Shown in pieces: positions 8,701-55,027 of a DNA stretch of 64,000 nucleotides. This DNA is from Octopus vulgaris (taxonomy: Eukaryota): positions 130,076,001 to 130,140,000 of the forward strand of contig OX597815.1 of the NCBI GenBank assembly GCA_951406725.2, written 5' to 3'. The notes beneath the pieces were generated by a model that made no database searches, was not told the origin of the DNA, and worked only from the letters and a program-made list of their open reading frames with translations. Numbering within the stretch: position 1 is the first letter of the stretch; each line of letters opens with the position of its first letter. Both the position numbers and the translations under genes were made by a program.

Positions 8701-9311
8701 GGTAGTTTGTGATCTCTGTTACTTATTATATTCCATGGTAACCGGATTCTTCGGCCTTGGGAATCTAAGGGTTCACAACGGATCTAAGTGTAACTAAGTA
8801 AGACCACTAAATTAGCAATGAATAGATTTTAAGGAAAACTGACGTAAATTACCAACTGGTTTTCATTTTCTGCCATAGCATCTTATTTAAACGCTTTCAG
8901 TATAGCAAACATGAAGTAATATTTCACCTACACAACTATTCTTTTTTTTCAGTCATTTGACTACGGCCATGCTGGAGCATCACCTTTAGTCGAACAAATC
9001 GACCACAGGACTTATTCTTTGAAAGCCTAGTACTTATTCTATTGGTCTCTTTTGTCGAACAGCGAAGTTACGGGGACGTAAACACACCAACATCGATGGT
9101 CGAGCTATGGTGGTGGTGGGGACAAACACATACACATAAATACTCTCTCACACACACATACACACATATACAACTGGCTTCTTTCAGTTTCTGTCTACCA
9201 AATTCACTTACAAGGCTTTGGTCTGCCAGAGGCTATAGTAGAAGACATTTGCCCAAGGTGCCACGCAGTGGGACTGAAGCTGGAACCATGTGGTTGGTAA
9301 GCAAGCTACTT

Positions 9312-11251
9312 TTATTCATTTCATTTGCCATAAAGGCAGTACAGAGATGGGTAGCTTTGTGGGCTGGACAAGACATTGCTGAGGCGAATGATAATAATAC
9401 AAGATGATAAGGATAGGAGAAAACAAAAAGCGCCCGCCGACCCTCTGCGTCTCTAAAACCTTGTTCTTTAAAAACACATATACAGAGGTATTGACCCTCT
9501 TACAATTTAAAATACAATATATTTGGACTCAAAAGTCCACACAAATACAAAACATAATTTATACACAAATTGGAGGCGATACACCTCTACAATCCCTCCC
9601 CAAGCAATTCTCTTGCGACTTGCAGGCATTCCTGCAACCGCAATCCGGGGCTCCAAAAAAAAATTCTATAATTCTTGTTTTCACACGAGTCAATTATAAG
9701 ATCACAGTACTTTCTTTCCAGCACCAGAGCAGCCACCTGTGAAGGCTACTCTGAGCTGTCAATACAAGTCGGGTCCCTCAGGATCCGACTATCCATATCA
9801 TTTTCCACAAAACTGTTAATAGCCACTCCTCTGAGATAGAAGAACATATATGCCCCGGTTTTCTTTTTTCTCTTCTTTTTTTTCCTTCTACGTAGTGAAG
9901 GTGGAGTTCCTCCGACATCTCCGGAGGACCCTCCCCCCGCTGACTCAGGATCCATCGGTGGCCAACCATTGTTGTCCACCTTCTTTCTTTTCTTCCCCTT
10001 TGTTTTCGAGGAGGTTACTTCCTCCTCGACTTTTTCCTCGACTGGGGGGGCAGGGGAAACCTTTTCAATTAACTGTTCCAGGACCCTTGCCTGGTCCCGG
10101 CGACAGTTCTTCTTTATATGGCCCGATTCCAGGCACAGGTGACACTTGGGGTGACATCCCTCAACCATCACTGGGTACCTGGAACCGGCCATTGTTAAAA
10201 AATCTGGTATAACCAGATCAACGGCTGATTGGGTCCATAGGGTCAAAATTGCTTTTGACCCGACCCAATCAACCGCAGGCAACATTTTTTACATTTAAGA
10301 GCCTGGCAGGGCCGCCACCCAGGCCCCGACGGATAGTGTCGTCTATCCACTCGACTTCTATACCGAGTGGCAGCCCACACACCCAAGCTCTTGTCAACTT
10401 TCTACCGCCATAAGTAGGGAGAAACAAAATTTTCTCCCTCTCGAAAGGCACGCTCGCAAAATCACGAGTTTCCGCAGGGGTGTCAAAAAGTACACACACA
10501 GTTCCATACTTCGCACCACTGCGGATAAACCTAACAGTTGGCAGATAGTCTGCCAACTCCTCCTCAATTACTTCTTCAGAGAAGACCTTGATGGTGTCAA
10601 GGACCCTGGAATAGTTCCTTAACACCACCGTTCTCTCCGTACAATTTTTCAACCATTCTTTGGGGGCCACAATTTGCCACTCCAAAGCGGGTTTCACAGT
10701 TGCCATGTTGATAGCCATAACAAAAATAAAAATCCACAAGCAAAAATCAGAATGTTCAAATGAAAGTCTATAAAGAAACTCAAAAAGATCAGAAAGACAG
10801 ACAGGAGAAGGAAGAGTAAAGGAAGATAATCCAAAATGGCAACACAACACAACACAATTCTGCTACTCTGGTAATCCAAACTGGTAGTCCTTCGCAGCTC
10901 AAATAGTATTCTGACCAACTCTGGCTGTACTCCTATCCTTTATAGTAAAAATCCACTTGAAAGGGCACAAGCACAGCCATAGAAAATTCAAAAAAATTTT
11001 CGGACGGACACGCCTCCCAAAATAAACATAATTCTCAATACGCTATGAGTTTTCTTACACGACCACAGGCAAACAAATGCCTGGAACCCAGTGGAGACCC
11101 CTGTTCAAAAAAATACTTAAATACAAACAGCAGACCCCACTAAGCTCCCCAAAACCAAATGCTTTACCTGTGGTCGTGCTTCAAATGTTCAATTTTTCAC
11201 GTACGACGTGACTTCTACCGCGATGAAACACAACGCGACAACTTGGTAGCA
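9312..11251 (-). mobile_element. ORF1-only (RT-less) non-LTR retroelement, Tx1/L1-like, copy 1, inserted in the head of SINE family A
   Basis: Flanked by an imperfect 15-bp TSD, gtaagcaagctactt (9297-9311) and gtaagcgagcaactt (11252-11266). Removing the element rejoins a SINE-A copy. Contains one gag/ORF1-like frame and no RT. Homologous along its length to 51296-53396. Confidence 0.85.
9746..10706 (-). pseudogene. ORF1/gag-like protein (RRM-like region, CCHC zinc knuckle, basic tail), frameshifted
   Basis: MATVKPALEWQIVAPKEW...ERTVVLRNY...LFDTPAE...LFLPTYGGRKLTRAWVCGLP joins, via a frameshift in the T7 run near 10285, to LPAVDWVGSKAILTLWTQSA...CHLCLESGHIKKNC (C-x2-C-x4-H-x4-C). Confidence 0.8.
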
Positions 11252-53396: not shown

Positions 53397-55027
53397 AAGA
53401 AGCTTGCTTCCCAACCAGATGATTCCGGGTTCACTTCTTTGCGTGACACCTTGGGTAACTATCGTCTCCTATAGCCTCGGGTCGATGAAAGCCTTGTAGG
53501 TGGATTTGGTAGACGGAAACTGAAAGAAGCCCATCGTATATATATGTGTCTGAGTTTGTTCCCCACCATCACTTGAAAACCGGTGTTGGTGTGTTTACGT
53601 CCCTTCAATTTAGCGGTGCGGTCAAAAGAGACCGATAGAATAAGTACCGAGCTTACAAAGAATTAGTCCTGGAGCAGACTTTTCGTCTAAAGTCGGTGCT
53701 CCAGCATGGCTGCAGCCAGATGACTGAAACAAATAAAAGAATAGAAGAATATATTTATGTGTGTGTGTGTGTGTTTTGTCACTCACTCCACCGCTTCATA
53801 ACTGATGTTGATCTGGTGTTGGTTTGTTTACGTCCCTGTAACTTAGCAGAATAAGTACCAAACCTGAGAAATAAGTACTAGGGTCAGTTTCTTAGGCAGG
53901 AACCCTTCATGGTTGTGCCCCCAGCATTATCCACTGTCCATTGAGTGAAACAAAAGAAGAAAGGTATATATTTTAAATTTTAGAACGTTGATTGAAAAAC
54001 ACATATACAGAAGTATCCGATCGAGTGTTTAATCAATATCAATATTTTTAGTTATATCAACGTATTCCCAGAATCTCCAAATCCCACCATGGCGTTTCTA
54101 TTTAGATTATATCGTCCTCAGGGATAAAGCAACACGTGTGGTCGTGGGCTAGTGTCAGGATAATCAATATATTTTACAACTTTGTATTTTATAATTAATT
54201 TATTGACGTGCGTATCCCTGAATCCATTAGCTTTTAGCAAAGGCTTCTCTAATCCAGAACTACATACAATTCTAGCTAGTCTCCCTTAAAAATATTAACT
54301 GAAAATGTTGACTGTTATACATACATACATACATACTTACATGCATGCATAAAGCAAAACATACAAATCTGCACATATACATACGTACAACAAAAATTAC
54401 ATATTTCTTTACTACCCACTAGGGGCTAAACACAGAGGGGACAAACAAGGACAGACAAACAGATTAAGTCGATTACATCGACCCCAGTGCGTAACGGGTA
54501 CTTAATTTTTCGACCCCGAAAGGACGAAAGGCAAAGTCGACCTCGGCGGAATTTGAACTCAGAACGTAGCGGCAGATGAAATACGGCTACGCATTTCGCC
54601 AGCTAACGTTTCTGCCAGCTCGCCGCCTTACAAAAATTACCTTGTTGTTGATGTCGAAATTCTAATGGAAAAGCCTTGGATCTAGGTTAGAAATTGACTC
54701 TTTATTGGCAAAAAATCTTGAAATAAAACTGAACAATGACATACATACGTACATGTATGCATGCATACATGCATGCACGCATACATACAAACTCACAACA
54801 TGGCCACAGCCTAATGACTGAAATAAGTAAAAGGTATACCGGTTACTCTGACGAATGTGGTTCTTAGATTATTGTCTTATTATGTAGTGTCCTGTACGAA
54901 ACCGATTTGTAAAATCGGATCTATAATATTGCATACTTTGCCTATTATTTCTGATCTATGTTTCTTTCTGATTTACGGATTCTTAGGCATATATATATAT
55001 ATATATATATATATATATATATACATA

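What the first reader, a model, noticed from the sequence alone, without database searches (positions are those of the whole stretch)
9297..53412. RT-less ORF1-only retroelement family that inserts at one nucleotide of a SINE's tRNA head (candidate SINE hyperparasite)
Seen in sequence: two ~2 kb elements (9312-11251 minus; 51296-53396 plus) each interrupt a SINE-A copy in the SINE's own orientation. The 3' junction is at the same position (...ggctgtgtggt^aagWagcttgctt...), between box A and box B. TSDs are 15 bp (2 mismatches) and 16 bp (perfect). Empty sites are visible in other SINE-A copies (47461-47477, 31543-31560). The two copies are clearly divergent (roughly 55-60% protein identity by eye), so they are independent insertions rather than a duplication. 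Both keep homologous 5' regions and 3' motifs, so they look full length, yet they encode only an ORF1/gag-like protein with a CCHC knuckle, with no endonuclease, RT or poly(A). Established: Tx1-clade elements are often sequence-specific (Tx1L in a DNA transposon, Keno in U2 snRNA, Mutsu in 5S rDNA, Dewa in tRNA arrays), and ORF1-only HAL1 elements exist in the L1 clade. Inference: this is a HAL1-like satellite of an unseen autonomous Tx1-type partner whose endonuclease recognises the SINE head (or the parent tRNA gene). It would use a very abundant SINE as a safe harbour and inactivate the SINE's Pol III promoter. I do not recall this combination being described.
Basis: partly seen in the sequence, partly recalled or inferred. 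Interest (0 to 1): 0.88.

Follow-up and report, generated by a model that had tools for sequence, protein, structure and literature searches.

The report
Half-LINEs and helper target octopus SINE
These are two decayed copies of an abundant octopus jumping gene that encodes only a predicted RNA-binding protein and lands at one exact base inside a very common short repeat, where a complete retrotransposon with a matching tail, likely its source of copying enzymes, also lands.

Summary
Confirmed and extended. Both inserts are real, decayed members of a large ORF1-only non-LTR family. Genome-wide, 304 of 326 exact tails abut the SINE target; about 0.9% of sites are filled. The predicted partner exists: a young 5.45-kb element with ORF1 plus APE-RT, the same junction and a shared 27-nt hairpin tail. 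SINE and insert do not move as one unit. The ORF (predicted two RRMs, CCHC, orphan C-domain) is under purifying selection but is only 24-31% identical to the partner's ORF1, so it is not a recent deletion of the partner. Correction: the 15-16-bp 'TSD' of full-length copies is partly element-borne; in 22 of 23 informative young copies bases 11-15 differ from their own target. Elements stack at the site, and one stacked pair became a subfamily with a new tail. Tx1 membership was not tested by a reference tree; transcription is untested. I found no SINE-targeting case in print. This scan noted the system before on other DNA.

The parts
11267..11287 (-). Host SINE head, positions 1-21, upstream of copy 1 (holds the box A-like motif; label recalled)
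   Evidence: blastn to the empty SINE at 47441
11252..11266 (-). 5' repeat of copy 1: about 10 target-derived bases plus about 5 likely element-borne target-like bases
   Evidence: split inferred from young relatives
9312..11251 (-). Copy 1 of the ORF1-only (type I) element, 1.94 kb, decayed
9605..10706 (-). Broken ORF of copy 1: predicted RRM-RRM, CCHC knuckle near 10147-10100, basic linker, degraded C-domain; frameshift near 10287
   Evidence: fold from an intact relative
9312..9338 (-). 3' tail of copy 1: 4-bp hairpin plus A-rich end, shared with the autonomous partner
8943..9311 (-). Host SINE body from position 22 (first 15 bases are the 3' repeat)
51259..51279 (+). Host SINE head, positions 1-21, upstream of copy 2
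51280..51295 (+). 5' repeat of copy 2 (16 bp, perfect): about 10 target-derived plus about 6 likely element-borne bases
   Evidence: sister copies L003 and L026 differ from their own targets here
51296..53396 (+). Copy 2 of the ORF1-only (type I) element, 2.1 kb, decayed
   Evidence: falls in the type I clade
51918..53103 (+). Broken ORF of copy 2 (6 stops, at least 2 frameshifts); CCHC knuckle 52481-52522; C-domain near 52860-53103
53370..53396 (+). 3' tail of copy 2: hairpin plus A-rich end
53397..53740 (+). Host SINE body from position 22 (first 16 bases are the 3' repeat)
32273..32795 (-).
47462..47477 (+). Empty target site in an intact SINE (youngest variant)
31545..31560 (+). Empty target site (variant matching copy 2's host)
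18905..18920 (+). Third empty target site

Best explanation
The two inserts are decayed copies of a non-autonomous, ORF1-only non-LTR retroelement family that inserts between bases 21 and 22 of an abundant octopus SINE and is likely reverse-transcribed in trans by the ORF2 protein of a 5.45-kb APE-RT element that uses the same site and carries the same 27-nt tail. Steps: (1) the passenger RNA is likely coated by its own protein, predicted as two RRMs, a CCHC knuckle and an orphan C-domain (the ORF and its purifying selection are shown; its function is inferred); (2) the partner's ORF2 likely binds the conserved tail hairpin (hairpin and compensatory changes shown; binding inferred); (3) its endonuclease would nick the bottom strand at 21/22 and prime reverse transcription (junction shown; nick inferred from the established TPRT mechanism); (4) the top strand would be cut about 9-10 or about 15-17 bases downstream (read from truncated copies); (5) full-length elements begin with 5-7 bases that copy target bases 11-16, so the 5' junction rebuilds a near-complete target (shown), which likely aids joining and re-use of the site; (6) elements stack at the site, and read-through of a stack can be copied as one new element with the downstream neighbour's tail (shared fossil junction shown; read-through inferred).
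For: Target: 86 of 86 tails in 90 ORF-selected loci; 304 of 326 exact tails genome-wide; 30 of 31 partner copies picked by internal RT sequence, one unresolved. Partner: ORF2 of 1132 aa with Exo_endo_phos, RVT_1, zf-RVT; ORF1 with zf-CCHC; ORF2 open in 6 of 20 copies. Partner and passenger share only the last 27 nt and the flanks. Hairpin in 89 of 144 distinct tails against 8.8 in shuffles, with paired changes TGCC/GGCA 61, GGCC/GGCC 12, TGTC/GACA 5, GGCT/AGCC 4. Independent insertion: 36 young copies differ 0.8% in the last 130 nt and 7.9% in the next 130 nt of SINE; partner 0.6% and 6.1%. 5'-truncated copies with duplications. dN/dS below 1 in every unsaturated pair of 16 representatives, 0.08-0.61 without one frameshifted copy. 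Fold: two RRMs (pLDDT 78; hnRNP A1-type tandem RRM, E 1e-4). Element-borne 5' bases: 22 of 23. Fossil stacked junction in 6 distinct loci.
Against: No transcript or enzyme data. The type I ORF is 24-31% identical to the partner's ORF1, less than a microsatellite-targeting sister's ORF1 is (34-35%); in Dictyostelium a 25%-identical foreign ORF1 did not support mobilisation (PMC3159450, passages), so a closer helper may be unseen or extinct. All genome searches score only the best 40-139 of thousands of candidates. L222 follows its target at base 11 and L232 carries a true 16-bp duplication. Variants at bases 1-9 appear on both sides in only 2 of 8 cases. The order of arrival in stacks could not be resolved. 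Related tails are not independent in the hairpin count.
Confidence: 0.8

Rival explanations
1. The type I family is moved by another autonomous element, with an ORF1 close to its own, that is rare, unsampled or extinct; the 5.45-kb element only shares the site.
For: Type I ORF sits on a long, fully supported branch apart from the partner's ORF1; heterologous ORF1 failed in TRE5-A (PMC3159450, passages); one locus joins a type I ORF to the partner's ORF2 (L243).
Against: Of 70 junction-selected loci the 8 with ORF2 are all 55-99% like the partner; a search with one of the most diverged of them returned the young partner family; young passengers and young partners share the tail and the same element-borne 5' variant and host SINE variant.
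Confidence: 0.12
2. The site is chosen mainly by tethering to Pol III factors on the SINE, or by pairing of read-through RNA with the target, and not by the endonuclease's own sequence preference; the passenger's ORF could then help in targeting.
For: The site lies between box A-like and box B-like motifs (labels recalled); TRE5-A finds tRNA genes through ORF1-TFIIIB contacts (PMC3159450, passages); fossil junctions imply RNAs that run through the target; one partner copy has a second SINE head at its 5' end (L146); stacking is far above site occupancy (11 of 90 against 0.9%).
Against: The junction is fixed to one base; sites behind another element's tail, with no SINE head, are used or kept; a sister element with about 60% identical ORF2 ends in (TATC)n in 9 of 9 copies, as expected if the endonuclease sets the target (PMC4494074, passages); none of 30 sampled tRNA loci shows the target motif.
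Confidence: 0.15
3. SINE head, insert and SINE body move together as one long chimeric retroposon from a few ancestral insertions.
For: Short 5' stretches are shared within subfamilies; one stacked pair did move as a unit.
Against: Host SINE bodies of near-identical elements differ ten times more than the element tails, heads by 9.6%; truncated copies sit in intact heads; rare target variants appear on both sides (L061, L105, L379, L275).
Confidence: 0.02
4. The ORF1-only copies are private deletions of an autonomous element.
For: Both window ORFs are broken.
Against: ORF2 lies inside 1 of 90 loci; dozens of near-identical copies share length and an open ORF of about 414 aa; dN/dS well below 1 across subfamilies with saturated dS.
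Confidence: 0.01

Closest known systems
Transposon-targeting Tx1-clade elements: Tx1L in Tx1D, Tx1-Mar in Mariner-N4_AMi, Tx1-9_AMi in Harbinger, with the passenger SINEU-3 (PMC4494074; passages and section 15 read)
   Same: APE-RT element that inserts into another mobile element; a non-autonomous passenger shares the target; microsatellite-targeting relatives exist (Kibi, Koshi; here a (TATC)n sister).
   Different: The target here is a SINE head at one base, not a DNA transposon, LTR element or RNA gene; the passengers encode a selected protein and come in at least three ORF lineages; clade membership was not tested against reference sequences.
HAL1 (half-L1) (PMC5753468, passages; the primary paper was not held)
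   Same: Non-autonomous, encodes only ORF1; several origins (here types I, II, III).
   Different: Strict sequence target; hairpin tail and no poly(A); type I is not a close derivative of its putative helper.
TRE5-A.2 of Dictyostelium (PMC3159450, passages)
   Same: ORF1-bearing, ORF2-deleted, moved in trans, targeted to a Pol III unit, needs a structured 3' end.
   Different: TRE5-A.2 is a direct deletion of its helper and lands about 50 bp upstream of tRNA genes by protein tethering; this family lands inside a SINE at a fixed base and its ORF is 24-31% identical to the partner's.
HeT-A with TART/TAHRE (PMC4467039, passages)
   Same: Gag-only element under selection, paired with a pol-bearing partner, head-to-tail arrays.
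   Different: HeT-A adds to chromosome ends and serves the host; this family uses tens of thousands of internal sites made by a third mobile element.

Membership tests
HAL1 | Encodes only an ORF1-type protein, no EN/RT | tested here: met
   ORF2 in 1 of 90 loci; homology to the partner's ORF1, E 2e-21; RRM-RRM-CCHC
HAL1 | Derivative of an L1-clade element (PMC5753468) | tested here: inconclusive
   Parent unknown; type I on its own long branch; no reference L1 or Tx1 ORF1 in the tree
HAL1 | Poly(A) tail and no strict target (recalled) | tested here: not met
   Hairpin tail joined directly to a fixed target; not filed as HAL1
Tx1 clade (partner) | Two ORFs; ORF2 with APE, RT and C-terminal zinc motif; CCHC in ORF1 | tested here: met
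Tx1 clade (partner) | Sequence-specific insertion | tested here: met
   30 of 31 RT-selected copies
Tx1 clade (partner) | RT groups with Tx1 references in a tree | not testable with these tools
   No labelled Tx1 sequence was returned; nearest solved protein is human L1 ORF2p, E 1e-66, against R2 at 1e-19, which places it in the L1/Tx1 group only
TRE5-A.2-like | Direct ORF2 deletion of its helper with shared ORF1 and UTRs | tested here: not met
   Only the 27-nt tail is shared; ORF1 24% identical
TRE5-A.2-like | Targeting by ORF1-TFIIIB contact near tRNA genes | not testable with these tools
   Needs protein interaction assays
HeT-A-like | Gag-only element in head-to-tail arrays with a pol-bearing partner | tested here: met
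   Stacks of 4 or more, mixed with the partner
HeT-A-like | Adds to chromosome ends | tested here: not met
   Internal sites on many contigs
tRNA-derived SINE (host) | Head recognisably derived from a tRNA | tested here: inconclusive
   No ARAGORN or Rfam tRNA call; no parent among 30 tRNA loci of six isotypes; box A/B-like and CORE-like motifs are read from recalled consensus; an octopus CORE-SINE, OR1, is named in PMC4824008 (passages) but was not compared by sequence

The most novel reading that the evidence does not exclude
A SINE serves as a self-renewing landing pad for a whole guild: one APE-RT helper and at least three ORF1-only passenger lineages. The main passenger did not come from today's helper; it is an old lineage that keeps its own selected RNA-binding protein with an octopus-specific extra domain, stays compatible by capturing fresh tails from stacked neighbours, and carries a 5' copy of the target that rebuilds the site and changes in step with the SINE's subfamilies.
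Probability: 0.35. Interest if true: 0.8.

Novelty: new variant of a known kind. Interest (0 to 1): 0.62.

Why it matters
It reverses the usual order (a LINE and its passengers exploit a SINE) and supplies a natural series for open questions: why an ORF1-only element keeps its ORF1 when it differs by 70-75% from the helper's; how an APE endonuclease changes target, with a SINE-targeting and a (TATC)n-targeting element about 60% identical in ORF2, both young and with open ORF2 copies in one genome; and how the 5' junction of a non-LTR insertion is joined. An RT that moves 2-kb passengers on a 27-nt tail into one fixed base is also of interest for targeted gene insertion. For octopus repeat annotation it warns that SINE and LINE models will be fused at this site.

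Tried and rejected
Random flanks, unit movement of the chimera and private deletion were tested and rejected. Pfam finds only a sub-threshold CCHC in the passenger ORF. The C-domain gave no identity: model pLDDT 64, no Foldseek match at E 0.001, best VIA Z 4.3, no atlas hit, 0 hits among 1.84 billion representatives; this does not show a new fold. The profile search of solved structures found only weak knuckle matches. Protein searches returned only two Octopus sinensis models. No parent tRNA and no target motif in 30 tRNA loci of six isotypes out of 34 listed; the test is small. Dating stack members by nearest neighbour gave 8 downstream-younger, 4 upstream-younger, 2 ties and is biased by my sampling. 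No reference Tx1 label could be obtained. Expression, start site, splicing and 3' end of the RNA remain open: no reads were examined. Two primary papers (PMC85248, PMC2923044) were not held; Repbase, Dfam and the Zenodo library of PMC13282606 could not be seen.
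Full report
Observation. They are 72.7% identical over 627 bp and 59-62% identical in four N-terminal protein segments. Both ORFs are broken. A third, end-less fragment lies at 32273-32795 and a third empty site at 18905. The genome, G000, has 2.8 Gb in 227 contigs; the only named homologues of the ORF are Octopus sinensis models, so I read it as an octopus genome.

Family size and target. A DNA search with copy 2 gave 2838 candidates, 40 scored; a protein search gave 13,623 candidates, 139 scored, many with open frames of 416-422 codons. 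I examined 90 of those 139 loci, chosen by ORF and not by flank: 86 had a recognisable tail and all 86 were followed by the target motif (84 by SINE body); 4 had no tail; on the 5' side 73 had the SINE head, 11 another element's tail, 6 neither. Genome-wide, 304 of 326 exact tails are followed at once by AAGWAG. Exact filled junctions number 696 against 76,647 exact empty sites, about 0.9%; both counts are lower bounds.

Independent insertions. Among 36 young copies the last 130 nt differ by 0.8% on average, the following 130 nt of SINE by 7.9%, the SINE heads by 9.6% (31 copies); for 11 young partner copies the figures are 0.6% and 6.1%. Short 5'-truncated copies sit in intact heads. SINE and insert therefore do not travel as one, and the truncations fit target-primed reverse transcription (established knowledge).

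The partner. A stacked neighbour of one copy was the C-terminus of an ORF2. A search with it gave 2929 candidates, 40 scored. Full-length copies are about 5.45 kb with ORF1 (about 467 aa, zf-CCHC) and ORF2 (1132 aa; Exo_endo_phos, RVT_1, zf-RVT); ORF2 is open in 6 of 20. Of 31 further copies picked by internal RT sequence, 30 end at the target and one was not resolved. The nearest solved protein is human L1 ORF2p (E 1e-66; R2 1e-19); no labelled Tx1 sequence was available, so 'Tx1-type' rests on architecture and behaviour. Partner and passenger share only the last 27 nt. That tail holds a 4-bp hairpin in 89 of 144 distinct tails against a mean of 8.8 in 200 shuffles, with paired changes; related tails are not independent, and binding by ORF2 is inferred. 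Of 70 junction-selected loci (from the first 75 rows), 39 were type I, 8 ORF2-bearing, 3 type II, 1 type III and 19 had no protein hit.

The passenger's protein. Intact copies encode about 414 aa. Residues 1-206 fold as two RRM-type domains and a knuckle (pLDDT 78; best Foldseek matches tandem-RRM proteins such as hnRNP A1, E 1e-4, high rmsd); the atlas points to CCHC and ZCCHC3-type RNA-binding proteins (a lead). A conserved C-domain of about 85 aa has no identified relative. dN/dS among 16 representatives of the N-terminal part is below 1 in every unsaturated pair of 120: 0.08-0.61 without the frameshifted copy L021, 0.18-0.88 for pairs with it. The ORF is homologous to the partner's ORF1 (24%, E 2e-21) but type I forms a 100/100 clade on a long branch, 24-31% identical to the partner's ORF1 over full-length alignments, whereas type II is 38-45%, type III 33-39% and a microsatellite-targeting sister 34-35% (midpoint root, deep forks open). 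Type II is a real family (705 candidates; no ORF2 in 25 of 25 loci; 15 of 25 show the target junction, by a pattern that required it). ORF2 lay within 1 of 90 type I loci, L243, which joins a type I element to the partner's ORF2; template switch or deletion cannot be told apart.

The 'TSD' is partly element-borne. In 72 young full-length copies (36 type I, 36 partner; 71 parsed) the 5' junction is nine target bases, 0-2 variable bases, then a motif fixed within the subfamily. At bases 11-15, 22 of 23 informative copies differ from their own 3' target and 1 equals it; L222, outside this set, follows its target. At bases 1-9, variants appear on both sides in 2 copies, on one side in 6; L061 has a base-1 variant on both sides, which places the junction at 21/22. 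Nine truncated copies, read by eye, have duplications of 8, 9, 10, 10, 15, 15, 15, 15 and 17 bases, so long true duplications also occur. The element-borne motif changes with subfamily (CTTCC, CTTAC, CTAAC) in parallel with the host SINE variant. I infer that it was captured from long duplications and now rebuilds the target at each 5' junction.

Stacks and tail capture. Eleven of 90 copies follow another element's tail, far above site occupancy; stacks of four or more mix types and partner. Order of arrival was not resolved. Six distinct loci (L020, L021, L023=L066, L067, L241, L260) share an internal fossil junction: an old tail, a 16-bp target copy and a 5'-truncated second element, followed by a new tail; 22 of 90 ORF-selected loci keep a remnant of the second element. 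A stacked pair was thus copied as one and left descendants, which gives a route for renewing the tail.

Sister element. An element about 60% identical in ORF2 ends in (TATC)n in 9 of 9 copies fetched from 40 listed and is very young. This fits the published view that the endonuclease sets the target (PMC4494074, passages).

Comparison with what is known. Tx1-clade elements target DNA transposons, LTR elements, U2 and microsatellites, and the passenger SINEU-3 shares the target of Tx1-Mar (PMC4494074; passages and section 15). HAL1 encodes only ORF1p and arose several times (PMC5753468, passages). TRE5-A.2 is ORF2-deleted, trans-mobilised and tRNA-gene-targeted, and a 25%-identical foreign ORF1 was inactive there (PMC3159450, passages). 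HeT-A is gag-only with a pol-bearing partner (PMC4467039, passages). A curated Octopus vulgaris annotation lists 13 recently active L1-Tx1 families with 421 insertions (mean 5.4 kb by my division) and no target analysis (PMC13282606; parts 1-2 of 3 and a supplement search); its library was not seen and may hold these sequences. PMC8869645, PMC4824008 and PMC5340908 were seen as passages only. Searches (listings) showed no SINE-head-specific LINE or ORF1-only passenger of one; subscription journals, Repbase and Dfam are not covered.

Verdict. The system is real. It works like a Tx1-type target-specific helper with HAL1/HeT-A-like passengers; it is not filed under HAL1, TRE5 or HeT-A, and Tx1 membership is likely but untested. 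Each ingredient has a precedent; the SINE target, the deep divergence of a selected passenger ORF, the element-borne target copy and tail capture are the new parts. Earlier notes of this scan describe the same system on other DNA; they are not counted as support. Novelty: new variant of a known kind. Interest 0.62.

Noticed in passing
L346, L366-L373, L405: Very young autonomous sister element (about 60% ORF2 identity to the partner, 3174 candidates, open 1152-aa frame in L366 and L405) that ends in (TATC)n in 9 of 9 copies.
   Followed up: partly
window 16183-16316, 20069-20393, 39254-40010, 41786-41955, 46096-46265, 54416-54585, 62053-62222: A second SINE-like family, often in multimers 184 bp apart, whose tail shares 26 of 26 bases with the partner's 3' UTR; it may be moved by a relative of the partner.
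   Followed up: partly
L146 (oriented 1836-1880): A partner copy with a second complete SINE head between a 6-bp duplication and its 5' end, as if its RNA began at SINE base 1; the only such case among the fetched loci.
   Followed up: partly
L162=L286, L047=L213: Two loci where a SINE head joins directly to the internal fossil target of the composite subfamily; either joining by homology during insertion or a later deletion between 16-bp repeats.
   Followed up: no
L243/L348: Type I element fused to the end of the partner's ORF1 and its whole ORF2, ending at the target.
   Followed up: partly
window near 11165 (minus) and 51395-51402 (plus): A splice-donor-like GTAAG/GTAAA motif about 100 nt into the 5' UTR and a pyrimidine tract before the ATG occur in both copies and in young relatives and the partner; no spliced copy was looked for.
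   Followed up: no
window 28644-29240: 5'-truncated retroelement C-terminal fragment between (TAA)n arrays; resembles Dong/R4 elements, a label recalled from memory.
   Followed up: no
window 42746-44658: Near-continuous RT-bearing LINE remnant of another clade.
   Followed up: no
window 34709-35170: Reading frame like a C2-domain (synaptotagmin-type, recalled) exon, so the window probably lies in a host gene's introns.
   Followed up: no
window 30237-31093: Inverted repeat, 249-nt arms, 99% complementary, 359 nt apart; possibly a young MITE.
   Followed up: no
window 51509-51639: A 52-bp direct duplication in the 5' UTR of copy 2, shared with sister copies.
   Followed up: no
P0103, P0104 clusters: Distant ORF2 relatives in the fish Coilia grayii have consecutive locus tags, which suggests a tandem array of another site-specific element.
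   Followed up: no
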